Origin: a plasmid
Direction: 5' to 3' (one strand)
NCBI RefSeq assembly: GCF_056712565.1
Contig: NZ_JBWXXM010000004.1
Length of the DNA stretch: 64,000 nucleotides
Shown piece by piece: positions 11,492 to 57,594 of the stretch; the stretch's first letter is position 1, and every line of letters begins with the position of its first letter. The notes below the pieces were generated by a model, which had not been told where the DNA came from, made no database searches, and saw only the letters and a program-made list of their open reading frames with translations. A program made the translations under genes and the position numbers.

Positions 11492-12523
11492 ATGTCCAAT
11501 TTACTGACCGTACACCAAAATTTGCCTGCATTACCGGTCGATGCAACGAGTGATGAGGTTCGCAAGAACCTGATGGACATGTTCAGGGATCGCCAGGCGT
11601 TTTCTGAGCATACCTGGAAAATGCTTCTGTCCGTTTGCCGATCGTGGGCGGCATGGTGCAAGTTGAATAACCGGAAATGGTTTCCCGCAGAACCTGAAGA
11701 TGTTCGCGATTATCTTCTATATCTTCAGGCGCGCGGTCTGGCAGTAAAAACTATCCAGCAACATTTGGGCCAGCTAAACATGCTTCATCGTCGGTCCGGG
11801 CTGCCACGACCAAGTGACAGTAATGCTGTTTCACTGGTCATGCGACGGATCCGAAAAGAAAACGTTGATGCCGGTGAACGTGCAAAACAGGCACTGGCGT
11901 TCGAACGCACTGATTTCGACCAGGTTCGTTCACTCATGGAAAATAGCGATCGCTGCCAGGATATACGTAATCTGGCATTTCTGGGGATTGCTTATAACAC
12001 CCTATTACGTATAGCCGAAATTGCCAGGATCAGGGTTAAAGATATCTCACGTACTGACGGTGGGAGAATGTTAATCCATATTGGCAGAACGAAAACGCTG
12101 GTTAGCACCGCAGGTGTAGAGAAGGCACTTAGCCTGGGGGTAACTAAACTGGTCGAGCGATGGATTTCTGTCTCTGGTGTGGCTGATGATCCGAATAACT
12201 ACTTGTTTTGCCGTGTCAGAAAAAATGGTGTTGCCGCGCCATCTGCCACCAGCCAGCTATCAACTCGCGCCCTGGAAGGGATTTTTGAAGCAACTCATCG
12301 ATTGATTTACGGCGCTAAGGATGACTCTGGTCAGAGATACCTGGCCTGGTCTGGACACAGTGCCCGTGTCGGAGCCGCGCGAGATATGGCCCGCGCCGGA
12401 GTTTCAATACCGGAGATCATGCAAGCTGGTGGCTGGACCAACGTAAATATTGTCATGAACTATATCCGTAACCTGGATAGTGAAACGGGGGCAATGGTGC
12501 GCCTGCTGGAAGATGGCGATTAG
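11492..12523 (+). CDS. cre: Cre tyrosine recombinase
   Basis: 343-aa product MSNLLTVHQNLPALPVDATSDEVRKNLMDMFRDRQAFSEHTWKMLLSVCRSWAAWCKL... with catalytic Tyr context NVNIVMNYIR; adjacent loxP. Confidence 0.97.
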   Translation: MSNLLTVHQNLPALPVDATSDEVRKNLMDMFRDRQAFSEHTWKMLLSVCRSWAAWCKLNNRKWFPAEPEDVRDYLLYLQARGLAVKTIQQHLGQLNMLHRRSGLPRPSDSNAVSLVMRRIRKENVDAGERAKQALAFERTDFDQVRSLMENSDRCQDIRNLAFLGIAYNTLLRIAEIARIRVKDISRTDGGRMLIHIGRTKTLVSTAGVEKALSLGVTKLVERWISVSGVADDPNNYLFCRVRKNGVAAPSATSQLSTRALEGIFEATHRLIYGAKDDSGQRYLAWSGHSARVGAARDMARAGVSIPEIMQAGGWTNVNIVMNYIRNLDSETGAMVRLLEDGD

Positions 12524-12540
12524 CCGTTCATTTGCGCTTG

Positions 12541-12557
12541 ATTGCTCTAATTATTTG
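12541..12557 (+). promoter_or_regulatory. C1 operator-like 17-mer downstream of cre
   Basis: attgctctaattatttg, 14/17. Confidence 0.45.
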
Positions 12558-12573
12558 ATATTTATGGTGACGC

Positions 12574-12885
12574 ATGCGGAAGGATTTCAAAATAGACGGA
12601 AAATATGTGGTGCTGTCTGTAAGCTCTCAAATTCAGTCACCATCTGTCATTGTCACCGTAAAGTTGAGCGATAGGATGCCTGATATCGACTCGATATCTG
12701 TTGCGTTCCCCGTTAAAAGCATGCGGAGTGCTGAACATTTTGTGATGAATGCAACGGAGGAGGAAGCGCGGCGCGGGCTTACTAGAGTGATGGTGGAATT
12801 TGGCGAACTCCTGGGTAAGGTAAACAATGCCCTTTCAATCAGTTCAGCAAGATCCAAAGCGTTAACAGCTTCCATGATGAAATAA
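12574..12885 (+). CDS. hypothetical protein (103 aa), c8-position
   Basis: ORF track; operator-like site upstream; position only. Confidence 0.35.
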   Translation: MRKDFKIDGKYVVLSVSSQIQSPSVIVTVKLSDRMPDIDSISVAFPVKSMRSAEHFVMNATEEEARRGLTRVMVEFGELLGKVNNALSISSARSKALTASMMK

Positions 12886-12909
12886 AAAAAGCCTGGCAAG
12901 GAGCCAGGC
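12884..12909 (-). terminator. hairpin with A7/T7 tract, intrinsic-terminator-like for leftward transcripts
   Basis: aaaaaaa gcctggc aagga gccaggc; the U-tract is on the minus-strand side. Confidence 0.35.
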
Positions 12910-13016
12910 TGCACAAAAGAGCGGGTTTGTATTCCGCATCCAATCAATCAAGAAGGAGTATAGCACACAGGTACTGAAGTGAAAAAATGTGATTCGCGAT
13001 TAACAAAATATCTGCC

Positions 13017-13046
13017 ATTGCTCTAATTGATTGCTATAATTAAGCC
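13017..13046 (+). promoter_or_regulatory. overlapping pair of C1 operator-like sites upstream of ref
   Basis: attgctctaattgattg (14/17) overlapping attgctataattaagcc (11/17). Confidence 0.45.
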
Positions 13047-13100
13047 GCAGTTTTTGTCAACTACGAAGACGTTGCCATTACTTAACTCCTTGACATCATT

Positions 13101-13127
13101 GGCGGCCATTAGGCCGCCTTTTTTTTT
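13101..13127 (+). terminator. intrinsic terminator-like hairpin 6 nt upstream of the ref start codon
   Basis: ggcggcc atta ggccgcc followed by T9. Confidence 0.55.
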
Positions 13128-13132
13128 GCCAT

Positions 13133-13693
13133 ATGAAAACAATCGAACAAAAACTTGAACAGCGCCGCGAGTGGCAGAAGGCAGCCAGAGAACGAGCGAT
13201 CGCTCGGCAACGGGAAAAGTTGGCTGACCCCGCCTGGCGAGAATCGCAATATCAGAAAATGCGGGATTCTATCGACCGCCGTATCGCTAAACAGAAAGAG
13301 CGCCCACCAGCCAGCAAAACGCGGAAAAGTGCGGTAAAGATAAAATCTCGTGGCTTGAAGGGGCGAACATCGACAGCGGAGGAACGGAGCATCGCCAATG
13401 CTCTTGGCGCTCTCCCCTGCATTGCCTGCTACATGCATGGAGTAATATCTGAAGAGGTATCTCTGCACCATATCTCCGGTCGTACCGCGCCGGGTTGTCA
13501 CAAAAAGCAATTGCCCCTTTGTAGATGGCACCACCAGCATGCAGCACCGGCTGAAGTAAGAGAAAAATACCCCTGGCTGGTCCCTGTTCATGCCGATGGT
13601 GTGGTTGGAGGCAAGAAAGAATTCACCTTGCTGAACAAGTCAGAGATGGAGTTGCTGGCTGACGCCTATGAGATGGCAAACATCATGCACTAA
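13133..13693 (+). CDS. ref: Ref, HNH-family recombination enhancement endonuclease
   Basis: 186-aa product; HNH-like CYMHGVISEEVSLHHISG...CRWHH; P1 position after cre/c8. Confidence 0.85.
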   Translation: MKTIEQKLEQRREWQKAARERAIARQREKLADPAWRESQYQKMRDSIDRRIAKQKERPPASKTRKSAVKIKSRGLKGRTSTAEERSIANALGALPCIACYMHGVISEEVSLHHISGRTAPGCHKKQLPLCRWHHQHAAPAEVREKYPWLVPVHADGVVGGKKEFTLLNKSEMELLADAYEMANIMH

Positions 13694-45949: not shown

Positions 45950-46305
45950 AGCACCACGTCCTGTGTGATAGTTATATCCCTGATACGAATGGATATTTTC
46001 AACTTATCAAAAGCATCTCCCTCGGCTACTGACAAGCCAGAAATCGGTATGTCGGGTAAATCTACCGTCAGTTTTTGCAAAAGCATTGCCTCAACCGCAA
46101 TTTGAACATGCGACAAGTTGGTCGGTTCGTGTTTAAACTGCGGTAAAACATTGCCCCATGACGGATCTCCGTATACCTCACCCTGATAAGTGTTTAGCCA
46201 CTCATATAAACGAGCGCCCCAGGCCTCCTCCTGGGACTCATACGTTTTTACGCCGGATAACTCCAGCGTCAGCAAAGGATCAATTTCGTTATTGTTGGCC
46301 ATCAA
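45946..46305 (-). CDS. putative morphogenetic protein (pmgA-position), 119 aa
   Basis: ORF track; coupled to sit. Confidence 0.35.
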   Translation of the reverse strand: MMANNNEIDPLLTLELSGVKTYESQEEAWGARLYEWLNTYQGEVYGDPSWGNVLPQFKHEPTNLSHVQIAVEAMLLQKLTVDLPDIPISGLSVAEGDAFDKLKISIRIRDITITQDVVL

Positions 46306-49300
46306 TCAACTCTCGCGTAGTCATTCATCAACGGATCATCAATTGACAGTGGCACCGTGCGCATAACGCCCGGTTGAGGCGTGCTGACCTTTACGACAGT
46401 TCCCTGGCCTTTCGCCGAGTCTTTAGTGTGCTCTTCAATCCTGGCAAGCAATGAGGTCATCTGCGCAAACAGCCGCTTCGTTTCACCATCAAGTGAAACG
46501 GTATTATCAGCCAACTGCATTGTCGGCTTGGCACCGGAGCCGCCAAGGTCACTAATAACCTGTCCGTCTATCTGCATACGACCGGTTGGTTGCTGCAAAT
46601 CGTTGGCGGCAGTCGTCACCTGGGACGTGGAGGCTGGTTCAGGCGCATTATTTTTCCGCATCCCCGGCGAGTTGCGGAGTTTATCAAATAGTCCATCAAT
46701 CCCCATTTGTGCGCCGAGTTGGTCAAAGTAACTTGAGTTGCTGGCCACCGGACGCGCCTCTTCAACTGGCATCTGAGTATCAACATACACATTGCCAGCT
46801 GCTGTTGCGGTCCCCTTCCCTCGTGCACGTTCTTCGAGCGTTCCCTGAACGACTTCCCGACGCATACCCCGGCCATTCATGAATTTGTTGACCAGATCGT
46901 TAACGCCAACAGCATTGCCAATTTTGTCTACCAGACCGCCTTTCTCAAACGGGCTATCACCAGGGGTAAACGCCAGGCCAGTAGACTGATCGATAACAGC
47001 GTTATCAGGCAGTGGTCCCCTCACTCCATATTGCGCCCCACCCTGTGCTCCTGCTCCAGGTGTATAGATTTCACCACCTAAATAGCGAGCACGATGAGTA
47101 TTGACCTTGATCGCGTACTCACGGTTTTCTTTCGATAAGTCACCTGTGCCTTTTTTCCACTTATTAATAGTGCCAAACCCAGCGTTATATGCAGTGATGG
47201 CCTCGTTTAAGTCTCCATTGGCTTGCTTCAGATACTTGCTCATGAGAAGAGCCGCAGCTTCTGCCGATTTTTCCGGATTAAAAGAATCTTCCCGGGATAA
47301 TCCAGTTTCCTCACGAGCAACGCGCGTAAACTGGAACATCCCGAGTGCGCCACCACTTAACTTTCCATCTGGTGATCTTGTAAGCGGAGACTTTGCGTTA
47401 GGATCCCCTCCTGATTCAGTTGCAGCAATCGCGTAAAGAGTGCCTTCAGGAAGACCATATTTATTCTCTAGTTCAGCAAAATACGGAGCTAACTTATCGA
47501 GATTTGCCTTACCTTCAGCGCCAAGGCTTCCGACTTTTACATCTAAGTTGCCATTATTGTAGGTATCAGCAGCTTTCTGAATGTCATTCCCAGTGCCGGT
47601 GGTATTACGCGACGATGATGACGAGCTATTTTGTCCAATAGCTGAATCAATTTTCCGCACCGCGCTATTGCCCATTTCTACGGCATTTGCATTGATAATC
47701 TGATTGGCAGTTTCTTTAACTGTTTTATTGCTATCTTTCGCCGTGTCCAGTGCCGCATTTATCACGCGGGTAGCAATATTAGTCTGTTTAGCATCGGATT
47801 CAGTTTTAGAATCAGATGTCTCCTGGTGGCTATTAACCGGAGCTTTTAACTCTGGAGTGATTTCTTTTGCATTAGCCTCGCCGATCGGATTGGGTATTTT
47901 TGATACAATCATTGCCGCAGGGGTATTTTTAACGGCATCAACCGCTGCATCTAATGCTTTACCGGGTAAATTTTTAACCCCATCCCAAATATTACCAGCC
48001 GCCTCTTTAATGTGTTTCCCTGGGTTCTTAATGAAGTCAATTGCACTATCAATTGCATCACTGAAAACCTGTTTCAGGTTATCGACAGTAAAGAAGTCTT
48101 TGATGGCATCCAGCTTTTCAAGCAACTTATTAGATGTATCGCTAAACCATGCTGAAACAGCATCACCAATCTTTGCTGTGTAATCATCGAACTTGGTAGA
48201 AATGGTGTCGCCAAGGTTAGAAATATATGTTTCTAAGTTGGTAACCCCGCTATCAATGGCCTGGGCAATACTTTCCGTCGAAAATGATTGCAACATATTG
48301 CCGATATCCTCAAATCCAAGTGATTTGAGAACATCACCAATAGCACTGCTAATACCAGATACCAGTCCCCCCAAATCAAGAACATTGGCTAACGTATAAG
48401 CGGCTTTTTGCTGGAATGATGGATCTTGTCCTGATTTAAGCCCAAACGCTCGACGTTGCGCTTCTGTATCATTCCAACCGGTTACCGCATCATAAATACC
48501 TCCAGCCACTGTGCCGACTAGGGGAATTGCGCGTAACGCCCCTTTACCAACTGCCTTTAATCCAAGTTTACCTGCTGCCCGGGCAGCCAAATCTCCGCCT
48601 TCATGGGCGAGAGTCTTCTTGCCCCCACCGCGTAGCATTCCTACGAGTCTCTTTGCCCCCAGAGCGCCAAAAGCGAGTGCTCCAGCTTTTTTCAGCATGC
48701 CACGCCCCATTAACAACGACGCGACGCCACCGGCCCCCTTCCCTAACAGGCTAAATAGTTTAGACAGCAAGCCGCCCTTCTTTTTCCCGGTGTTTTTGGC
48801 TATCTGATCAAGGGCGCTGAGAATCTTGTCATTGCCCTCTTTAATTTCGCTGGTCTGCTCCTGAAGTTCCTGAACCGTCCGTTTTTGGGTGTTAACCTGA
48901 ACGACATCGGCACTATTTTGCGATTTACGCCTAAAAAAACCTTTTCTACGGCTGTTATCGTCATTGCCACGAATCACATCGGCAATAGACTTTCTGGCAC
49001 CATTAAGCGATCCACCAACTTCTTTTGATATCCCGCCAAGCTCCTTCCCTGCTGCCCACAATGGACCAGCAACAGCATAACCTAACGCATCGACGGCACG
49101 AGTCTCTGAAGGGTTACCTATGCCTTCAGCTACTTTTGACAGTTTTTTTAATAAACCTGATTCAGCATTTAGACGCTCATCATCCTCTTTGCGCCTGGCC
49201 TTTTCAGCACGTTCAGCACGGGCATCTTCCGCTGCGGCCTTACTCCCTGACTTTCCAATAAAACGACCACGCGCATCGCGTTGGTTTTGGCTTTTTTGCG

Positions 49301-49724
49301 CACCGCCTTTTTGACCGAACATTTCGCGAGCGTGTTCGGCTGCTTCGGTCCGTTGCGCCTTTACATCTTCTGTTATAGCCTTCTTGCGTCGTTTTTTACC
49401 CTTTCGCGTAGTTGATTTGGCCTGCGGTTCCTGTAGAGCAACATCCTCCTGAACTACACGAGAAACGTCCCCTAAATTAAGCCGTTTCATTGCCTCAACA
49501 ATAGGGTCCACTGATGGCGCATTGGCCACAAAGTCTGGCCGGGAATTTTCGATTGTGCGATTTAATGCCGACACACTGCGAGAGACAGGATCAACAGTTG
49601 CAACGCGTCCCCCTTTCAAATCTTCAACAGCTTCCCGGATACCTGCAAGCTCTTCCAGCTCTTTTGCGCTGGCGGTTTCAACCGTCCTTATCACATCGTC
49701 AATGTTGGCGTTTTTTCTTTCCAT
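46302..49724 (-). CDS. sit: Sit, tape-measure-like structural injection transglycosylase
   Basis: 1140-aa product (length of P1 Sit); soluble lytic transglycosylase motif AIAATESGGDPNAKSPLTRSPDGKLSGGALGMFQF; Ala/Gly/Lys-rich repetitive N-terminal half. Confidence 0.75.
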   Translation of the reverse strand: MERKNANIDDVIRTVETASAKELEELAGIREAVEDLKGGRVATVDPVSRSVSALNRTIENSRPDFVANAPSVDPIVEAMKRLNLGDVSRVVQEDVALQEPQAKSTTRKGKKRRKKAITEDVKAQRTEAAEHAREMFGQKGGAQKSQNQRDARGRFIGKSGSKAAAEDARAERAEKARRKEDDERLNAESGLLKKLSKVAEGIGNPSETRAVDALGYAVAGPLWAAGKELGGISKEVGGSLNGARKSIADVIRGNDDNSRRKGFFRRKSQNSADVVQVNTQKRTVQELQEQTSEIKEGNDKILSALDQIAKNTGKKKGGLLSKLFSLLGKGAGGVASLLMGRGMLKKAGALAFGALGAKRLVGMLRGGGKKTLAHEGGDLAARAAGKLGLKAVGKGALRAIPLVGTVAGGIYDAVTGWNDTEAQRRAFGLKSGQDPSFQQKAAYTLANVLDLGGLVSGISSAIGDVLKSLGFEDIGNMLQSFSTESIAQAIDSGVTNLETYISNLGDTISTKFDDYTAKIGDAVSAWFSDTSNKLLEKLDAIKDFFTVDNLKQVFSDAIDSAIDFIKNPGKHIKEAAGNIWDGVKNLPGKALDAAVDAVKNTPAAMIVSKIPNPIGEANAKEITPELKAPVNSHQETSDSKTESDAKQTNIATRVINAALDTAKDSNKTVKETANQIINANAVEMGNSAVRKIDSAIGQNSSSSSSRNTTGTGNDIQKAADTYNNGNLDVKVGSLGAEGKANLDKLAPYFAELENKYGLPEGTLYAIAATESGGDPNAKSPLTRSPDGKLSGGALGMFQFTRVAREETGLSREDSFNPEKSAEAAALLMSKYLKQANGDLNEAITAYNAGFGTINKWKKGTGDLSKENREYAIKVNTHRARYLGGEIYTPGAGAQGGAQYGVRGPLPDNAVIDQSTGLAFTPGDSPFEKGGLVDKIGNAVGVNDLVNKFMNGRGMRREVVQGTLEERARGKGTATAAGNVYVDTQMPVEEARPVASNSSYFDQLGAQMGIDGLFDKLRNSPGMRKNNAPEPASTSQVTTAANDLQQPTGRMQIDGQVISDLGGSGAKPTMQLADNTVSLDGETKRLFAQMTSLLARIEEHTKDSAKGQGTVVKVSTPQPGVMRTVPLSIDDPLMNDYARVD

Positions 49725-49805: not shown

Positions 49806-50687
49806 TCAGCGTCCTGAATCGGTATACCCCCATACAAAACCAGGTTGGACACTAAGGTCTGATAGCTTTTCAATCCCCACCTGTGGAATGAAGTCGGTAG
49901 CCCGAAAGGGCACCCACAGACGGGTATACGCACCCTCTGTGGACTCCTTTGTATCCTGGTTTGGGCATTTGTGCGGCGGGAGACGAAGACGCATTTCGCC
50001 TTTATCGATGTAGCACGGTAAACCATGTTCGAGCTTTTCATGAGCCACCCGGATGTGTGCCGCCAGCTTCATAAATTCAGTATCAATGGCCATCCGTTTG
50101 ATCGTTTCATAACGACGCTCAGCCTGCTCTTCACGAGTACCGCTAACATCGTTATAAAGTTCACACTGATAAGCGAATTCCCAAAAACGCAAATCAACGA
50201 TCGCTTCTTTGAATTCCGCGTCGTCTTCAGGTGGCAATGCTGCACGGCGCATCTCCAGCATTTCCATTGCCCAACCATCAAGCGGCACGATACGCCATTG
50301 ATAAGGCACGCCCTCTACAGACACCTCAATATCGTCAATGAACGGTTCCACTTCCAGGACCTGGATATCTTCAGCCAGAGCATTCATATCGCAATCGTAA
50401 TAATGCTCTTTACCGCAATGTTTACAGGTGTAGGTGAATGTCTCGACCGGTGTTTCACGGGAGCCAGTAAATATCCACCATAACGCGGTAATCCGGTCCT
50501 GCGCCGTCCATGTCAGGGGATCATATTTCGCGGGTTCAGCCAGCAAGGCTTTTAAATACGCCGTTGTCTGTTGTTCTTGTTCCTCCGGTGTTATCGAGTT
50601 GAAACGCATCGCATCAGCAATATTTGGCTGACGGAACTGGATCAATTCAGTTGGCCGCGATGGTAGCGGGAAAAGAGGTAAAAGCAT
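49806..50687 (-). CDS. putative morphogenetic protein (pmgB-position), 293 aa
   Basis: ORF track; synteny. Confidence 0.35.
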   Translation of the reverse strand: MLLPLFPLPSRPTELIQFRQPNIADAMRFNSITPEEQEQQTTAYLKALLAEPAKYDPLTWTAQDRITALWWIFTGSRETPVETFTYTCKHCGKEHYYDCDMNALAEDIQVLEVEPFIDDIEVSVEGVPYQWRIVPLDGWAMEMLEMRRAALPPEDDAEFKEAIVDLRFWEFAYQCELYNDVSGTREEQAERRYETIKRMAIDTEFMKLAAHIRVAHEKLEHGLPCYIDKGEMRLRLPPHKCPNQDTKESTEGAYTRLWVPFRATDFIPQVGIEKLSDLSVQPGFVWGYTDSGR

Positions 50688-50701
50688 CCTTGCTCCTTAA
50701 T

Positions 50702-51313
50702 TTAAAGCGAAAAACTAAAGCCCAGAAGGGAAGCTAAAGAACTTGAGGATTGGTTAAACGTGCTGTGCAATGCGAAGGTCATTGGGAATGACTTAAATTC
50801 CGTAACCTGATCCCGCGCATAGGTGACATCGCCGGTAGTGACCGGGAATACCGTCATCTCATTTTCCAGTTTGGTTAAACCGGAGGACAGCAACCGATAA
50901 ATACGCACATTGAGCAAATATTTAGACGGTATATTCCCGGTACCGTCCGGATTGATCACCCGACTTTTTGCCGTCTTAAACCAGTCCAAAACGAGGCCAT
51001 CAACGGTATCCCTGACCATCATTGTTATCTGCCCAGGCGAACGCTCCGTTGGCTGAAGGATATTCCCTCCGCCGATTTTAATCGTTTCATATTCGATGCT
51101 GTAATCGTGGTAGGTAATGTCTTTAGCAAAGAAGTCTGCCCCCTCCAGACCATCAACTTCGACAGAGAACTGCCATCCTTGCGCGAACAGCATTTTGTTC
51201 ATGATGATTGACGTCAGCTTACCAACTTCCCGCTCACCAACGCCGGAGCCAAATAATGTCGTCGTTAATGCCGAAGATACATAAGACTTTACTGAAGCAA
51301 CATTAAGCCCCAT
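50702..51313 (-). CDS. tail tube protein (tub-position), 203 aa
   Basis: ORF track; synteny. Confidence 0.4.
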   Translation of the reverse strand: MGLNVASVKSYVSSALTTTLFGSGVGEREVGKLTSIIMNKMLFAQGWQFSVEVDGLEGADFFAKDITYHDYSIEYETIKIGGGNILQPTERSPGQITMMVRDTVDGLVLDWFKTAKSRVINPDGTGNIPSKYLLNVRIYRLLSSGLTKLENEMTVFPVTTGDVTYARDQVTEFKSFPMTFALHSTFNQSSSSLASLLGFSFSL

Positions 51314-51323
51314 ATCAGCCCCC

Positions 51324-51914
<591 letters not shown>

Positions 51915-52043
51915 TTACCCGATTCTACGAGTTGTCATTTGTTACCGGTCAGTCTACACATTTCAGATGCTGCGTTAAAAAACCCAAGTACTTCAAGTAG
52001 CACATCGTCATCAACACCCAGCCCCAAGATACGGTGATAAAAT

Positions 52044-53078
52044 TCAAGCCTTAAGAGGCTTTGTGTATGTTCGTGTAATCCATCCAGTAATAAACTCGTC
52101 CCCTGATTTAACCTGCACGAAAAGCCATTGGCGATCTTTTTTATCTAAAACAGCCACTATAGTATTTTTGCCAATGCATTCAATCACCTCACTATTTATA
52201 GAAGGACTGACGTGTAATCTTACGTTCTCACCAGTTATAAAACGAAAACCATTGAGATCTTCCCAACTAATTTCTTTGTTTTCTTTAATTAATTGTTGTT
52301 TTGATATTGGTTTATCCTCAAACAGAGATATAAAATATGATTCTGCCTTGTGTATTCCCAGCAAGGTTTTCTCTTTTCCGTAATCAATAAAAGCACCAAA
52401 CACAACTTGAGAAAATATAACCATTAGTAACCATTGCAGTGGATAAGGAAGCTCTTTAAATGAATCAACAAACTTTGAGCTAGGTTTATTTAATCCTTTA
52501 TTTTGAACATTACTTTTGGTGTGTGATGTTTCAGTAGCACCTTCAGCATAAGCCTGCGCAATAGATGAAATCCCCTGCTCTATTATTTGATGTAATGAAG
52601 CATTTCTTGTTCTAGCATAGTGATCTAGTACTTTCTTTATGTCTTGGCTTACATCTATTTTATAACTTGCACTTTGTTGTAATTCTTTAAGTATCGCTTG
52701 CATGTTATTTAAACCAGCTTGCTTATTAAGCACCTCAAGCTGTTTTCGTAATGGCATAGCTATTTCGGCCTGTTTCCTTAGCATTTGAATATATCTATTT
52801 GCATCATGAGGGAAAAGAGCCTGAGTCTGTTTCTGTAAAATCGCGATATGTTCACGATACTTGCTGCCTATTCCAGCCAAGTTCGGTATACTAGCCAATT
52901 GTTTTCGAAGAGAGTTACTAATTACAGCTTGTCTATTCAATCTTGGCATATTTTGAAAAGAATGTTTTTCTATTCCTAATTGTTTTTGCAAGATCGCTAC
53001 GTGATCTTTGTATGATGGAATGAGCACTGACTGTTTATACAGCAACTTCAACTCATTAGAATTAGTAATTTTTGTCAT
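52044..53078 (-). CDS. membrane-anchored protein with N-terminal ILQKQ-type repeats and C-terminal SH3-like domain (sim-position cluster)
   Basis: 344-aa; repeats HVAILQKQ / HIAILQKQ / LRKQ; TM segment LPYPLQWLLMVIFSQVVFGAFIDYG; C-terminal GENVRLHVSPSINSEVIECIGKNTIVAVLDKKDRQWLFVQVKSGDEFITGWITRTY; AT-rich codon usage. Confidence 0.5.
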   Translation of the reverse strand: MTKITNSNELKLLYKQSVLIPSYKDHVAILQKQLGIEKHSFQNMPRLNRQAVISNSLRKQLASIPNLAGIGSKYREHIAILQKQTQALFPHDANRYIQMLRKQAEIAMPLRKQLEVLNKQAGLNNMQAILKELQQSASYKIDVSQDIKKVLDHYARTRNASLHQIIEQGISSIAQAYAEGATETSHTKSNVQNKGLNKPSSKFVDSFKELPYPLQWLLMVIFSQVVFGAFIDYGKEKTLLGIHKAESYFISLFEDKPISKQQLIKENKEISWEDLNGFRFITGENVRLHVSPSINSEVIECIGKNTIVAVLDKKDRQWLFVQVKSGDEFITGWITRTYTKPLKA

Positions 53079-53152
53079 ATTATTCCATTTCTATAATAGA
53101 ATATTACGCAACCAATGTTTTATTGATTGCGTTAATCTTTAACACAGAAAGA

Positions 53153-53629
53153 TCATTTGCCTCGTTTAATACATCCATCCATTTTGGCTTGTTGATACAA
53201 CTTACTTAGCCCAGAAAGAGGGAATGTAGCAATTTTTTCATTATCAACATAAGCATCAATCATATTAGCATTTGAATCTGCTGCATCTTGCCAAAAGGCA
53301 TACCACCAAGAATCTCCAACCATTGATCCAAGATTGCTAAAAGGATATTGATCACCATCTATAGTTAATACTATTTTATTCTTGTCAGCATTATACTCTT
53401 TTTTATTATTCGACGAACTTAGCAACAAGCCTAAACTACCTGCACTATCTGGTGAACCATACATGAATCCCATATCACATAAAAAACTTATCTTATCACC
53501 ATTATGATTATGGATTGTATATTCTCTCCCCCCTCTCTCTTCAATTACATTCCATTGTAGAGGATCAATTTTTGCAAATGTTCCTGCTGAAACTAACGAT
53601 ACAAATAATAAAAACCATCTCATATTCAT
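53153..53629 (-). CDS. secreted/periplasmic protein with signal peptide (sim-position cluster)
   Basis: N-terminus MNMRWFLLFVSLVSAGTFAKIDP (n-h-c signal peptide with AxA-like cleavage context). Confidence 0.5.
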   Translation of the reverse strand: MNMRWFLLFVSLVSAGTFAKIDPLQWNVIEERGGREYTIHNHNGDKISFLCDMGFMYGSPDSAGSLGLLLSSSNNKKEYNADKNKIVLTIDGDQYPFSNLGSMVGDSWWYAFWQDAADSNANMIDAYVDNEKIATFPLSGLSKLYQQAKMDGCIKRGK

Positions 53630-53651
53630 TCTTTTCGCTTCTTATCTGTAA

Positions 53652-54002
53652 TTATTCTGCAATATCATTTGCCCATTGCACGGCAGCAAAATGAGTACCC
53701 AAACCACTCAGGAAAGCAATTACCCCCAAAACAATACTTGCTGCTGTTGATTCAAACAAAGTACCAATACTATAGCCAATAGCTCCCCATACTAAGCTAA
53801 ATACAATCATCAATGGTATTGCTAGAAATTTTATTCTTAAACTAAAAATCAGTCCAAGAAAAGAACCGCCAAAGGCCCACCATGATTTAGACATTAAACC
53901 TATCAGTATTGACAGAATTCCTATTTCAATAAAGAGAATATTAGATTGCTCTTCATTGAATTTCGCATTTGTTACACCTTTACGAACATGTTCAGATGAC
54001 AT
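53652..54002 (-). CDS. small polytopic membrane protein (sim-position cluster)
   Basis: 116-aa, three hydrophobic helices (ILFIEIGILSILIGLM, FLGLIFSLRIKFLAIPLMIVFSLVWGAIGY, AASIVLGVIAFLSGLG). Confidence 0.45.
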   Translation of the reverse strand: MSSEHVRKGVTNAKFNEEQSNILFIEIGILSILIGLMSKSWWAFGGSFLGLIFSLRIKFLAIPLMIVFSLVWGAIGYSIGTLFESTAASIVLGVIAFLSGLGTHFAAVQWANDIAE

Positions 54003-54148
54003 GATTAACTATCTCCTGCCACAGATAAAACGCCTTAAAATAACATTTTGTAGCATAAAGTTTCACCATGCAATGGTCAAAATCTTTGACCCATATCAAT
54101 TAAACTCATACATTTTAGTTACCAGAGAAATAATTTACATGGTTGCAA

Positions 54149-54165
54149 GTTGCTCTAATTATTTT
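54149..54165 (+). promoter_or_regulatory. C1 operator-like 17-mer in the promoter region of the sim-position cluster
   Basis: gttgctctaattatttt, 14/17. Confidence 0.4.
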
Positions 54166-54292
54166 ATTTTTTTAGCTTCATATGCTACATTAACTTGCTT
54201 GCGTGCTAATGCATTTTCGGTTTATCCTAAACAGGCATCTTAGTAAAACGGATGCCGGGATTGGAACCCCGGATAATGCAAAAGGCGACATA

Positions 54293-54314
54293 GACGCCAA
54301 AAGCGTCTTTTTTT
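54293..54314 (+). terminator. intrinsic terminator on the plus strand with no protein gene upstream
   Basis: gacgc caaaa gcgtc followed by T7. Confidence 0.5.
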
Positions 54315-54717
54315 GTGTCATGCCATCGCACAACCATACGTAGCACATAGCTCCGAGATCAATGGTAGTGCTGGCTGGGCTGCCGAAAGGCAGGCCGGTT
54401 CCCTTTTGCGCCGGTAGTTCCAACCCAGTCAGTGCTACCGCCATTGAGATTGGAACCTCACGCGGTAGCTCCTTAAATTAGCAAAAGGAGGCTGCCATTG
54501 TGGCTACTATCCCTACCCCTACTCATCCTGAATTTATCTGGCGCTTTTACTCCTGCCAAAAACACCACTATCACTTCGTTATCGCAGCAACAGAAGACGA
54601 AGCACGCTCTCAATTGCCTGATGGCCCCTGCATTTTTACTGCCCGTTTTTCAACTAACTCGCGCAATTCACTTAGTTACTGGAGCCTCCCCTTCTCTGCC
54701 GACGTTCAGGGGGGTTT

Positions 54718-55755
54718 ATGAAAACACCTCTCGTCACCCGTAATGAAATAGCCGAAGCGATCGCCTTGCATACTGCCTGTATGCCGACACGGGAGATCCC
54801 CGGCGCAATTGCTAACTATTTCATGATAACCAGACGTTTTTATACCCGAACAGATAAGGCTGTGATCAACAGGCTACTGATAGCCGAGATCAGGGATTAT
54901 TTGATTGAACAAGGACGTCTACGTTACGCAACAGTGGCAGCAGAAATGAGAAAGGAGGCACATAGAATGACCGGTAATAATTTAAATGTTGAAAAAACAG
55001 CACCTGTTGCTTCAGCTACGCCATCACCAGCTGTGAATGTTATCTCCAACACTGGAGACACAATCGACAGCCAGACACTGTTAAAGATGGTCAATGAAGC
55101 GCGTAAGTTATGTGGGGAACCAGAGGTTCGGAACAACAAATTCATCGAAAAAATACTCGATGAGCTTGATGGTGAGCACTACACAAAAAGTGTAGTGGAA
55201 AAAATGAACAAAACATCAATGCTTGTCATAACCATGACTTTCAAACAAGCCCTGCGAGTCGCCGCGCGCGAGTCAAAAGCGGTCCGCCGTTCGCTGATCG
55301 ACAAACTGGAAGAATTACAGCAGGCAAACTCCCCTACCCCATCGATCCCCCAGACATTACCAGAAGCCCTACGCCTGGCTGCCGAGTTAGCAGAACAGAA
55401 AATGCAGTTGGAACAACAGCTGGTGGCCGCAGCCCCTAAAGTCGATTTTGCCGACCGGGTATCAGTGGCCAATGGAATCCTGATCGGGAACTTTGCAAAG
55501 GTCGTTGGACTTAAGCAAAACGCCCTTTTCTCATGGTTGCGCCAGAACGGCATTCTCATGGCTTTTGGTGCGCGCAAAAACGTACCGCGCCAGCAGTACA
55601 TTAACGCCGGGTATTTCACGGTGAAAGAAGTGGTGCTGGATGATGAAAATGGCTACCAGATACGGCTGACGCCCCAATTAACGGGTAAAGGCCAGCAGTG
55701 GTTAACTCGCAAGCTACTTGATGCTGGTTTGTTAAAACCAGTAGCAATAGGTTAA
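54718..55755 (+). CDS. KilAC-domain antirepressor-like protein (rlfA-position)
   Basis: 345-aa; C-terminal 130 aa (PQTLPEALRLAAELAEQK...GKGQQWLTRKLLDAGLL) paralogous to the C-terminus of the next gene; GGGG-ATG start context. Confidence 0.55.
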   Translation: MKTPLVTRNEIAEAIALHTACMPTREIPGAIANYFMITRRFYTRTDKAVINRLLIAEIRDYLIEQGRLRYATVAAEMRKEAHRMTGNNLNVEKTAPVASATPSPAVNVISNTGDTIDSQTLLKMVNEARKLCGEPEVRNNKFIEKILDELDGEHYTKSVVEKMNKTSMLVITMTFKQALRVAARESKAVRRSLIDKLEELQQANSPTPSIPQTLPEALRLAAELAEQKMQLEQQLVAAAPKVDFADRVSVANGILIGNFAKVVGLKQNALFSWLRQNGILMAFGARKNVPRQQYINAGYFTVKEVVLDDENGYQIRLTPQLTGKGQQWLTRKLLDAGLLKPVAIG

Positions 55756-55918: not shown

Positions 55919-56719
55919 ATGCAACAAACATTCAATGCGGATATGAATATATCAAACCTTCATCAAAATGTCGATCCTTCAACCACTCTGCCTGTTATTT
56001 GTGGTGTTGAAATTACGACCGACCGCGCTGGCCGTTACAACCTTAATGCTCTACACAGAGCGAGCGGACTCGGTGCCCATAAAGCGCCAGCTCAATGGCT
56101 AAGAACGCTGTCAGCCAAACAGCTTATCGAAGAGCTTGAAAAAGAAACTATGCAGAATTGCATAGTTTCGTTCGAAGGCCGTGGCGGCGGTACGTTTGCC
56201 CATGAATTGCTCGCTGTGGAGTACGCAGGCTGGATTTCTCCCGCGTTTCGGCTGAAGGTAAACCAGACATTTATCGACTATCGAGCCGGAAGATTACAAC
56301 CTGCTATTCCGCAGAGTCTCCCTGAAGCTCTCCGTTTGGCTGCCGACCTGGCAGAGCAAAAGCAACGGCTGGAGCAAAAAATGCTTATGGATGCGCCTAA
56401 AGTCGAATTCGCCGAACGCGTTGCTACCGCCAGCGGGGTTCTAATCGGCAACTATGCCAAAGTGCTCGGCCTGGGCCAAAACTATCTCTTCACCTGGTTG
56501 CGTGATAACGGAATTCTGATCGCAACCGGTGAACGCAGGAACGTCCCCAAACAAGAATACATATCCCGTGGGTATTTCACCCTTAAAGAAACCGTGATCG
56601 ATACAAGCAATGGAAGCAGGATTTCTTTCACGACTCGTATAACCGGCAAAGGTCAGCAGTGGCTGATGAAGCGATTGCTTGATGCTGGTGTGCTGGTACC
56701 TGTCGCGGCAACGCGCTAA
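55919..56719 (+). CDS. KilA-N / KilAC antirepressor-like protein (rlfB-position)
   Basis: 266-aa; N-terminal KilA-N-like region (GRYNLNALHRASGLGAHKAPAQWLRT) plus KilAC-like C-terminus shared with the preceding gene. Confidence 0.55.
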   Translation: MQQTFNADMNISNLHQNVDPSTTLPVICGVEITTDRAGRYNLNALHRASGLGAHKAPAQWLRTLSAKQLIEELEKETMQNCIVSFEGRGGGTFAHELLAVEYAGWISPAFRLKVNQTFIDYRAGRLQPAIPQSLPEALRLAADLAEQKQRLEQKMLMDAPKVEFAERVATASGVLIGNYAKVLGLGQNYLFTWLRDNGILIATGERRNVPKQEYISRGYFTLKETVIDTSNGSRISFTTRITGKGQQWLMKRLLDAGVLVPVAATR

Positions 56720-56748: not shown

Positions 56749-57594
56749 ATGCTGGCTAAAGTCACTTTCCTGAGCTGTATAACGATGAGCGATTTTACTT
56801 TTTCTGGCTATGAATTGGCCTGCTTTGTAACACACTCCGGTCTATCTCGTAGCGCCGGGCATATCCTGTCGCAATGTGCAAATCTAGCGGCAACAACCAG
56901 TGAATACTTCATTCACAAGCCTCACCGCCTGATCGCGGCAGAAACTGGTTATAGCCAATCAACCGTCGTTCGTGCATTCCGTGAAGCTGTAAACAAAGGA
57001 ATTCTGTCTGTAGAGATTGTTATCGGCGATCACCATGAACGTCGTGCTAACCTGTACCGGTTTACACCATCCTTTTTGGCCTTCGCACAACAAGCCAAAA
57101 ATGCGCTGATTGAAAGCAAATTAAAGATCTCTTCAGCGGCAACCAAGGTTAAAGCTGTTCTCGCTAAGACATTGGCTTTATTTAATTTTTTATCCACACC
57201 CCCATGTCAAAATGATACCCCCTCCCCCTGTCAGGATGACGTGGCAATAAAGAATAAGAAGTCACAAGTTAAAAAAACAAAAAGATCAGTTTCCGGCGGT
57301 GCCGGAACGACCAGACTCAAAAAATTGACTTCATGGATCGCTGAGGTAAAAGCAAAGGCTGACAATCTGCGGTTATCCAAAAAACGCGCTCAAAAACATG
57401 AGTTCAAGCAGAAAGTAGAGGCGGCAGCGCGGAAATATGCTTACCTGAAGAACAAGCGTTCTCCTGATATTGGCGGGGTATCAAACTTCGATAATCTGCC
57501 GCATTGCATGACGGTAAACGAAGCTCTTAATGCGGTTTTAGCCAAAAATAAAGATAACGAACAATGGGGTATACCGGCAGGATTCAGAGGGTGA
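56749..57594 (+). CDS. putative DNA-binding protein with N-terminal winged-helix/HTH (pmgF-position)
   Basis: 281-aa; HTH-like GYSQSTVVRAFREAVNKGIL; Lys-rich C-terminal half. Confidence 0.4.
   Translation: MLAKVTFLSCITMSDFTFSGYELACFVTHSGLSRSAGHILSQCANLAATTSEYFIHKPHRLIAAETGYSQSTVVRAFREAVNKGILSVEIVIGDHHERRANLYRFTPSFLAFAQQAKNALIESKLKISSAATKVKAVLAKTLALFNFLSTPPCQNDTPSPCQDDVAIKNKKSQVKKTKRSVSGGAGTTRLKKLTSWIAEVKAKADNLRLSKKRAQKHEFKQKVEAAARKYAYLKNKRSPDIGGVSNFDNLPHCMTVNEALNAVLAKNKDNEQWGIPAGFRG

What the first reader, a model, noticed from the sequence alone, without database searches (positions are those of the whole stretch)
52044..54240. AT-rich three-gene envelope cluster at the superimmunity (sim) position
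Three co-directional genes stand out from the neighbouring tail genes by visibly lower GC (not computed). They encode a 116-aa three-helix membrane protein, a 158-aa protein with a classical signal peptide, and a 344-aa protein with four ILQKQ-type repeats, one TM helix and a C-terminal SH3-like beta domain. An operator-like 17-mer (54149-54165) lies in the upstream region. In P1 this position holds sim, which blocks superinfecting P1; I cannot tell whether these are sim orthologues or a different exclusion/defence module swapped into the same slot.
Basis: partly seen in the sequence, partly recalled or inferred. Interest (0 to 1): 0.6.

Follow-up and report, generated by a model that had tools for sequence, protein, structure and literature searches.

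The report
Envelope-protein cargo in P1 sim hotspot
A P1-like phage-plasmid carries, where phage P1 has its superinfection-blocking sim genes, three unrelated and separately swappable genes for cell-envelope proteins of unknown function, which most plausibly also keep other phages out, although nobody has tested this.

Summary
Three minus-strand genes (g344 52044-53078, g158 53153-53629, g116 53652-54002) form the most AT-rich 2.2 kb of the window (GC 0.34 against 0.48). They lie exactly where P1 has simCBA, between late promoter LPsit and the C1 operator of the c4-icd-ant operon.

They are not sim orthologues: BLASTP and profile comparison find nothing. They match no known defence system. Low GC does not set them apart, because P1 sim is 33.5% GC.

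The cluster is a mosaic, not one unit:
- g158 is a Sec-exported periplasmic protein of the uncharacterised YfjT/YkfB family. This family is detectable in more plasmid records (182, nearly all of P1-like size) than SimC (141).
- g116 is a conserved small membrane protein that also occurs alone in Vibrio and in metagenomes.
- g344 is a membrane-anchored protein with variable helical repeats, predicted cytoplasmic, and a conserved SH3 domain, predicted periplasmic. It occurs with other partners or alone elsewhere.

All three are under purifying selection. The 17-mer is a real C1 operator, but it belongs to the divergent immunity operon.

My best reading is superinfection exclusion at the envelope, inferred and untested. 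This is a new variant of a known kind, in an already known variable region, and of moderate interest.

The parts
51922..51941 (-). Late promoter LPsit, the conserved left border of the variable slot. Homology to P1 and P7 ends at 51943-51945.
   Evidence: Window 51900-51942 is 97.7% identical to the P7 stretch annotated as LPsit. The homology break was mapped by blastn.
52044..53078 (-). g344: single-pass inner-membrane protein. It has a helical, KQ-repeat N-terminal domain (1-205, net charge +14, predicted cytoplasmic), a TM segment at 213-234, and a conserved C-terminal SH3_3 domain predicted to be periplasmic. It is an independent single-gene module.
   Evidence: All 27 family members carry SH3_3. 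The C-terminal ~140 aa are conserved, while the N-terminus varies in length and sequence (325-481 aa). omega is 0.2-0.3 for the C-terminal part and 0.44-0.65 for the N-terminal part. It occurs alone in D6-like elements and in Yersinia.
53106..53132 (-). Stable hairpin between g158 and g344, at the junction of two exchangeable modules. It is terminator-like.
   Evidence: 11-bp stem, -17 kcal/mol, z = -4.9 against shuffles. Homology to plasmids that carry DUF4760 instead of g344 starts at 53159.
53153..53629 (-). g158: Sec-exported periplasmic protein of the YfjT/YkfB family (PF27224), with a conserved Cys pair (C51, C153).
   Evidence: Precomputed Pfam PF27224:YfjT on the 98%-identical cluster representative and on relatives. 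RefSeq uses the name 'YfjT/YkfB family phage-associated protein'. It is 26% identical to K-12 YfjT, E 5e-7. The AF2 model has pLDDT 90.4. omega is 0.22.
53652..54002 (-). g116: small inner-membrane protein with 3-4 hydrophobic segments, GxxxG motifs and a conserved N-terminal motif VRKGxTNAKFNEEQS.
   Evidence: Homologues are 58-72% identical in a Salmonella P1-like element, Vibrio and metagenomes. omega is 0.07-0.09. It stops 22 nt before the g158 start.
54052..54080 (-). Sigma-70 promoter-like site upstream of g116 (TTGACC-17-TATGCT). This is weak evidence only.
   Evidence: The number of promoter-like sites in the region is not above the shuffled expectation (7 against 9.6).
54149..54165 (+). 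C1 repressor operator (the Oc4/Op51 equivalent) of the divergent c4-icd-ant (immI) operon. It marks the right border of the cargo proper.
   Evidence: It occupies the same position relative to the C4 RNA as in P1. From 54150 rightwards the sequence matches the immI leader of JL22, RCS47 and D6.

Best explanation
The 2.2-kb AT-rich stretch is accessory cargo in the known variable 'sim' hotspot of a P1-like phage-plasmid. The hotspot is a site that P1 does not need for lytic growth, lying between late promoter LPsit and the C1 operator of the immI operon.

The stretch is a mosaic of separately exchangeable genes, all encoding cell-envelope proteins:
- g116 is a small polytopic inner-membrane protein.
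- g158 follows it by 22 nt and is a secreted, probably disulfide-bonded periplasmic protein of the YfjT/YkfB family.
- g344 follows a strong hairpin. It is an inner-membrane anchor with a variable helical-repeat domain, predicted cytoplasmic, and a conserved SH3 domain, predicted periplasmic.

Shown here: the position, the gene structure, the lack of homology to Sim, family membership, modular exchange, and purifying selection.

Inferred: the genes are expressed from the plasmid prophage and act at the periplasm or inner membrane to stop incoming phage genomes after adsorption. This would be superinfection exclusion, as for P1 Sim, T4 Imm/Sp, HK97 gp15 and P22 SieA. In this reading g158, perhaps helped by g116, interferes with the periplasmic stage of injection. 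That stage depends on the injected transglycosylase and tape-measure protein Sit. g344 would bind peptidoglycan or a tail component through its SH3 domain.
For: Position and dispensability:
- The slot has the same borders as P1 simCBA and P7 upf50.0/50.5.
- P1 simABC is non-essential by CRISPRi, whereas the adjacent pmgC is essential (PMC10695390).
- simABC is listed as one of eight low-GC variable regions of P1-like elements (PMC9603915).

Envelope bias:
- All nine cargo families I saw in this slot have a signal peptide, a lipobox or TM segments. They are SimA, SimB, SimC, Upf50.0, Upf50.5, YfjT-like, g116, g344 and DUF4760.

g158 and its family:
- The family is detectable in 182 plasmid records, nearly all 90-100 kb and non-mobilizable, against 141 records for SimC.
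- In other P1-like elements a YfjT-like gene follows a full-length SimA homologue. That homologue carries a motif copied from Sit (BLASTP E 6e-9; hmmscan to the Sit PHROG E 1.2e-7). This points to the injection step.
- YfjT relatives are phage-associated everywhere I looked: the K-12 cryptic prophage CP4-57, beside the small membrane protein YpjK and the lipoprotein YfjS, and small-ORF arrays of jumbo phages.

Functional, anciently diverged alleles:
- omega is 0.07-0.65 for the three genes. Cargo dS is 0.11-0.20, against 0.007 in the flanking tail genes.

Topology:
- The g344 N-terminal domain has net charge +14 and no signal peptide, so the SH3 domain should be periplasmic.
Against: - There is no experimental or homology link to any protein with a shown exclusion function. 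PADLOC and NCBIfam find nothing.
- g116 is 58-72% identical across distant bacteria and often sits in non-phage contexts. That fits a conserved housekeeping-type membrane role better than an arms race.
- The variable part of g344 is the part predicted to be cytoplasmic, not the periplasmic domain that would meet an incoming phage.
- Expression in lysogens is not shown, and the promoter scan is not above chance.
- From my own knowledge, not checked here: Sim itself gives a phenotype mainly when present in multicopy.
Confidence: 0.45

Rival explanations
1. Lysogenic-conversion genes for host fitness. The envelope proteins would alter host surface or envelope physiology (stress tolerance, colonisation, serum or antimicrobial resistance) and would play no role against phages.
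For: The g116 family is highly conserved and occurs in ordinary chromosomal neighbourhoods. YfjT/YkfB are retained in K-12 cryptic prophages. No defence family matches. The elements are common in clinical and animal E. coli.
Against: YfjT relatives also sit in lytic jumbo phages, which gain nothing from long-term host fitness. The slot is the one known to hold an exclusion gene. The usual partner of YfjT in this slot mimics the injected protein Sit.
Confidence: 0.2
2. A membrane-based abortive-infection or other defence system. g344 would sense peptidoglycan damage or a phage protein through its SH3 domain, and g116 (a small protein with GxxxG motifs) would depolarise the membrane.
For: The cluster combines an AT-rich hotspot location, a small membrane protein with GxxxG motifs, and a sensor-like architecture (SH3, TM, repeat domain). 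One g116 homologue lies next to an AAA_15/AAA_21 ATPase gene in Vibrio.
Against: The three genes do not travel together, so a three-part system is unlikely. PADLOC finds nothing. No enzymatic or nucleotide-binding domain is present.
Confidence: 0.12
3. Accessory functions for the phage's own lytic cycle, such as lysis timing or inhibition, or anchoring to peptidoglycan during assembly or release.
For: The genes are co-oriented with the downstream late tail operon. The SH3_3 domain is the type found in endolysins (weak PHROG amidase hit, E 0.009). From my own knowledge: periplasmic phage proteins include antiholins such as T4 RI.
Against: The slot lies upstream of the late promoter LPsit and is dispensable in P1. 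Its content differs completely between otherwise ~99% identical phages. In D6-like elements g344 is a lone gene on the opposite strand, in the manner of a moron (an independently expressed add-on gene).
Confidence: 0.1
4. Highly diverged orthologues of P1 simA/B/C.
For: The position, strand and gene number are the same. There is one exported protein, as for SimC, and the AT content is similar.
Against: BLASTP gives no hit better than E ~1. hhalign of a 60-sequence YfjT profile against SimC and SimB gives probabilities of 0.1% and 2%. The lengths and architectures differ. P1 simA is the truncated 5' end of a different gene that is absent from this window.
Confidence: 0.03

Closest known systems
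P1 superimmunity locus simA-simB-simC
   Same: It has the same slot (LPsit to Oc4), the same strand, three genes, about 34% GC, at least one Sec-exported product, and it is dispensable accessory cargo.
   Different: There is no sequence or profile similarity. The sizes and architectures differ. The window has no simA remnant. No function has been tested.
E. coli K-12 YfjT / YkfB (cryptic prophages CP4-57 and CP4-6; Pfam PF27224)
   Same: g158 is a member. It is ~155 aa with a signal peptide and conserved Cys residues, and it sits next to a small hydrophobic membrane protein (YpjK in K-12, g116 here).
   Different: It is only 26% identical to K-12 YfjT. K-12 has the lipoprotein YfjS between the two genes. 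The family itself has no known function.
Slot variants in other P1-like elements (Ro157c2YLVW, Cronobacter phage JK004, O157:H7 pF1273-3, Salmonella P1-like plasmids)
   Same: They have a YfjT-family gene in the same slot. g344 homologues occur in pF1273-3, and a g116 homologue (72% identical) occurs in Salmonella.
   Different: Those elements start the slot with a full-length SimA homologue that carries a Sit-like motif, which this window lacks. Their YfjT alleles are only 28-38% identical to g158.
T4 Imm + Sp, HK97 gp15, P22 SieA (superinfection-exclusion proteins of the inner membrane and periplasm)
   Same: This is a functional analogy only. They are small phage-encoded inner-membrane and periplasmic proteins that block DNA entry after adsorption. 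This rests on my own knowledge, not on a test.
   Different: No homology was tested or is expected. Membership cannot be claimed.
P7 Upf50.0 / Upf50.5
   Same: They occupy the same slot and are exported or lipoprotein cargo.
   Different: There is no similarity. The GC content is higher (0.40).

Membership tests
P1 Sim (SimA/SimB/SimC) | Sequence or profile homology to SimC, SimB or SimA | tested here: not met
   The best BLASTP E-value is ~1. hhalign probabilities are 0.1% (SimC) and 2% (SimB, signal peptide only).
P1 Sim (SimA/SimB/SimC) | Location between LPsit and operator Oc4, on the strand of the tail genes | tested here: met
P1 Sim (SimA/SimB/SimC) | Blocks P1 infection after adsorption and before DNA reaches the cytoplasm | not testable with these tools
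   This needs infection assays. Literature on Sim was cited through PMC8546580.
YfjT/YkfB family (PF27224), for g158 | Match to the family model or to family members | tested here: met
   PF27224 is precomputed on the 98%-identical representative P0001 and on slot homologues. A profile built from g158 relatives retrieves proteins labelled PF27224. BLASTP to K-12 YfjT gives E 5e-7. RefSeq uses the family name. Caveat: the local Pfam-A and NCBIfam copies gave no hit.
YfjT/YkfB family (PF27224), for g158 | Protein of ~150 aa with an N-terminal signal peptide and a conserved Cys pair | tested here: met
   Alignments A2 and A3: C153 is invariant and C51 is present in at least 90% of sequences. AF2 pLDDT is low only in residues 1-20.
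Bacterial SH3 (SH3_3, PF08239), for g344 | Pfam SH3_3 match | tested here: met
   E 2.2e-5 at residues 285-338. All 27 aligned relatives match, the best at 3.8e-9.
Known anti-phage defence systems (PADLOC-DB v2) | HMM match of any of the three proteins | tested here: not met
   No families at E <= 1. Other cargo proteins of the slot also gave none.
P7 Upf50.0/Upf50.5 | Sequence homology | tested here: not met
Imm/Sp- or Sie-type exclusion proteins | Homology to, or shown exclusion phenotype like, T4 Imm/Sp, P22 SieA or HK97 gp15 | not tested
   No reference sequences were compared. The resemblance is by localisation and size only.

The most novel reading that the evidence does not exclude
YfjT/YkfB-family periplasmic proteins, here g158 working with the small membrane protein g116, together with the SH3-anchored g344, are new envelope-level anti-phage exclusion factors. 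They would block the periplasmic stage of myovirus genome injection that depends on Sit (the injected tape-measure protein and transglycosylase). The P1 'sim' slot would then be a dedicated, recombining arsenal of such factors. This would give a function to the E. coli y-ome genes yfjT and ykfB.
Probability: 0.3. Interest if true: 0.6.

Novelty: new variant of a known kind. Interest (0 to 1): 0.4.

Why it matters
P1-like phage-plasmids are common in clinical and animal E. coli and carry resistance genes. In this survey 112 of 5,426 complete E. coli genomes carry some part of this cargo. What occupies the sim slot may decide which phages, including therapeutic phages and other P1-like vectors, can enter a lysogen.

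The survey shows that classical simBC is only one of several alternatives. An uncharacterised secreted family (YfjT/YkfB, also present in E. coli K-12) is detectable in more plasmid records than SimC. A direct test could therefore assign a function to long-standing unknown genes and explain how exclusion works in P1-like elements.

If no phage phenotype exists, the cluster is simply one more uncharacterised add-on gene set (a 'moron' cluster) in a known hotspot.

Tried and rejected
- **Sim and P7 homology.** BLASTP against SimA/B/C and P7 Upf50.0/50.5, and hhalign of the YfjT profile against SimB and SimC, found no homology.
- **Family libraries.** PADLOC, NCBIfam and local Pfam-A gave nothing for g158 and g116. 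PHROGs returned only families of unknown function.
- **Cultured phages.** tblastn of g344 and g116 against 50,697 phage records found no match. g158 has only relatives at 38% identity or less there.
- **g344 structure.** The AF2 model was unusable (pLDDT 41.5), so no fold search was made. Sequence and profile searches of PDB with g344 hit only designed helical repeat proteins.
- **Promoters.** The promoter scan was not above the shuffled expectation, so expression and its regulation are left open.
- **Literature.** Searches for yfjT, ykfB and P1-like hotspot cargo found no functional study.
- **Idea rejected: one co-inherited three-gene system.** The modules recombine independently.
- **Idea rejected: the operator controls the cluster.** It sits at the position of the immI operator.
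- **Analysis not done: co-variation of Sit alleles with slot type.** Tight physical linkage would make any correlation uninformative.
Full report
**What is there**

The window is a P1-like phage-plasmid, 100% identical over this region to about 20 E. coli plasmids of 90-100 kb. Around the finding lie the following genes:
- sit (46302-49724, minus strand)
- pmgB, tub and pmgC (49806-51890, minus strand)
- icd (54500-54721, plus strand)
- ant1 (54718-55755)
- kilA (55919-56719)
- repL (56749-57594)

GC of 52044-54240 is 0.340 against 0.484 elsewhere. This is the lowest of all 2.2-kb stretches in the window, and GC3 is 0.22-0.27.

**Borders and the operator**

Homology to P1 and P7 stops at 51943-51945, just past the late promoter LPsit, and resumes at about 54527 inside icd.

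From 54150 rightwards the sequence is the leader of the immI operon in a third immunity type, similar to JL22, RCS47 and D6. That leader contains:
- a C1 operator at 54149-54165, with 3 mismatches to the consensus; the window holds 10 such sites against 0.21 expected
- an isrK-like RNA at 54235-54313
- the C4 antisense RNA at 54358-54445, scoring 76.7 bits

The operator lies 209 nt before C4, against 203 nt in P1. It is therefore the Oc4/Op51 equivalent and belongs to the divergent c4-icd-ant operon. The cargo proper is 51944-54149.

**Comparison with sim**

In P1 the same slot holds simC, simB and simA on the same strand. In P7 it holds upf50.0 and upf50.5.

None of the three proteins resembles SimA/B/C or the P7 proteins by BLASTP. 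A 60-sequence profile of the g158 family does not match SimC or SimB (hhalign probabilities 0.1% and 2%). The P1 sim slot is itself 33.5% GC, so AT-richness is a property of cargo in this slot, not of this cluster.

The simABC region is already listed as one of eight low-GC variable regions of P1-like elements (PMC9603915). It is dispensable for lytic growth, while the neighbouring pmgC is essential (PMC10695390).

**g158**

g158 belongs to the YfjT/YkfB family:
- Precomputed Pfam PF27224 'YfjT' is assigned to its 98%-identical cluster representative and to slot homologues.
- Recent RefSeq records name it 'YfjT/YkfB family phage-associated protein'.
- It is 26% identical to K-12 YfjT.

It has a signal peptide and a Cys pair that is conserved across the family. 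The AF2 model is confident (pLDDT 90.4, pTM 0.82) and shows a beta-rich fold with two helices.

The family is phage-associated wherever I looked:
- P1-like slots
- the K-12 cryptic prophage CP4-57, where the order is ypjK (a 78-aa glycine-rich membrane protein), yfjS (an inner-membrane lipoprotein), then yfjT
- small-ORF arrays of jumbo phages of 170-280 kb

In PLSDB a YfjT-type gene is detectable in 182 plasmids, nearly all 90-100 kb and non-mobilizable. SimC is detectable in 141.

**g116**

g116 is a small membrane protein with 3-4 hydrophobic segments and GxxxG motifs. Homologues are 58-72% identical. They occur in a Salmonella P1-like element (same slot, upstream of a different YfjT allele), in Vibrio metschnikovii and in metagenomic contigs. 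There they are often alone or follow a DUF4431 exported protein.

g116 is under strong purifying selection, with omega 0.07-0.09.

**g344**

g344 has 48 relatives, mostly on contigs of about 90-100 kb from Escherichia, Citrobacter and Salmonella, and it also occurs in Yersinia.

The C-terminal ~140 residues (juxtamembrane motif, TM segment, linker, SH3_3) are highly conserved. The N-terminal helical KQ-repeat region varies in sequence and in repeat number, giving lengths of 325-481 aa.

The N-terminal domain has net charge +14 and no signal peptide. This predicts a cytoplasmic N-terminus and a periplasmic SH3 domain. The AF2 model was poor (pLDDT 41.5), so I did not use it.

**Modularity**

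The three genes do not form one unit:
- Other P1-like plasmids have g116+g158 with a DUF4760 gene on the opposite strand instead of g344. The homology break is at 53159.
- O157:H7 pF1273-3 has a full-length SimA homologue, a different YfjT (29% identical to g158) and a g344 homologue.
- In D6-like elements of Salmonella and Citrobacter the g344 homologue is a lone opposite-strand gene near darB. In Yersinia it follows umuDC-like genes.
- An O111:H8 plasmid has two YfjT paralogues in tandem, separated by a 102-bp copy of the LPsit region. This shows how the slot grows by homologous recombination.

A stable hairpin at 53106-53132 (-17 kcal/mol, z = -4.9) marks the g158/g344 junction.

Cargo alleles are far older than the backbone. 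dS is 0.11-0.20 for g116 and g158, against 0.007 for tub and pmgC, in the same pair of plasmids.

Of 5,426 complete E. coli genomes, 112 carry some part of the cargo and 36 carry the full cluster. 113 of the 114 places are on plasmids.

**Context that bears on mechanism**

P1 simA (52 aa) is the 5' remnant, about 46 codons, of a longer exported protein of 163-222 aa. That protein precedes YfjT in Ro157c2YLVW, JK004, pF1273-3 and Salmonella.

The full-length protein carries a segment copied from the C-terminal part of Sit. BLASTP gives E 6e-9 to Sit residues 937-979, and hmmscan to the Sit PHROG gives E 1.2e-7. Sit is the injected tape-measure protein and transglycosylase. The full-length gene is absent from this window, but it suggests that the slot's cargo is aimed at the injection step.

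All nine cargo families I saw in the slot are exported or membrane proteins.

**Interpretation**

The best-supported reading is that these are prophage-expressed envelope proteins acting in superinfection exclusion at the periplasm or inner membrane. I hold this with a confidence of about 0.45.

This rests on position, predicted localisation, phage association of the families, allelic diversity and the Sit-mimic partner. It does not rest on homology to any protein of proven function.

No known defence family matches. No paper in the library addresses these proteins.

The rivals are host-fitness conversion genes (0.2), membrane-based abortive infection (0.12), a lytic-cycle accessory function (0.1) and diverged sim (0.03).

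**Verdict**

The finding is a new variant of a known kind, namely accessory envelope cargo in an already described hotspot. It is of moderate interest.

Noticed in passing
L003 (P1) 1905-2071; L005 2802-3449; L017 5368-5859; L016 4234-4902; L006 3401-3970: P1 simA (52 aa) appears to be the truncated 5' end (about 46 codons) of a 163-222 aa exported protein. That protein is intact in other P1-like elements, where it precedes a YfjT-family gene. DNA homology between P1 and Ro157c2YLVW stops 46 codons into the gene.
   Followed up: partly
window Sit residues 937-979 (gene 46302-49724, minus strand) compared with L005 2802-3449 and L016 4234-4902: The full-length SimA homologue carries a motif (GMRxxxVQGTLEERARGxGT) copied from the C-terminal part of the injected transglycosylase and tape-measure protein Sit (BLASTP E 6e-9; Sit PHROG E 1.2e-7). 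It could act as a periplasmic decoy of Sit.
   Followed up: partly
window 54235-54313 (+) and 54358-54445 (+): An isrK-like RNA (58.3 bits) lies just upstream of the C4 antisense RNA (76.7 bits) in the immI leader. This immunity type differs from P1 and P7 and resembles D6, JL22 and RCS47. In JL22 and RCS47 the matching sequence lies far from pmgC, which suggests a second c4-like locus there.
   Followed up: no
window ~54362-54481 (+): RefSeq annotation of identical plasmids places a 39-aa 'ash family protein' CDS over the C4 antisense RNA. This is probably an annotation artefact.
   Followed up: no
L025 3096-3197; L018 753-4277: Some P1-like plasmids have a duplicated LPsit/pmgC-5' segment, or a whole duplicated pmgC-tub block, between two sets of slot cargo. 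One has two YfjT paralogues in tandem. The slot seems to expand by homologous recombination between different P1-like elements.
   Followed up: partly
L021 (E. coli K-12 CP4-57) 12446-13616: ypjK (a 78-aa glycine-zipper membrane protein), yfjS (an inner-membrane lipoprotein) and yfjT form a compact run next to the regulator gene yfjR. It shows the same pairing of a small membrane protein with a YfjT-family protein as g116-g158.
   Followed up: partly
window 47400-48400: GC dips to 0.40-0.44 inside sit, which may mark a variable or recombinant central segment of the tape-measure protein.
   Followed up: no
L004 3050-3943 (+): An alternative cargo gene in the slot encodes a DUF4760 protein with N-terminal TM segments, on the opposite strand. 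It has no PADLOC hit.
   Followed up: partly
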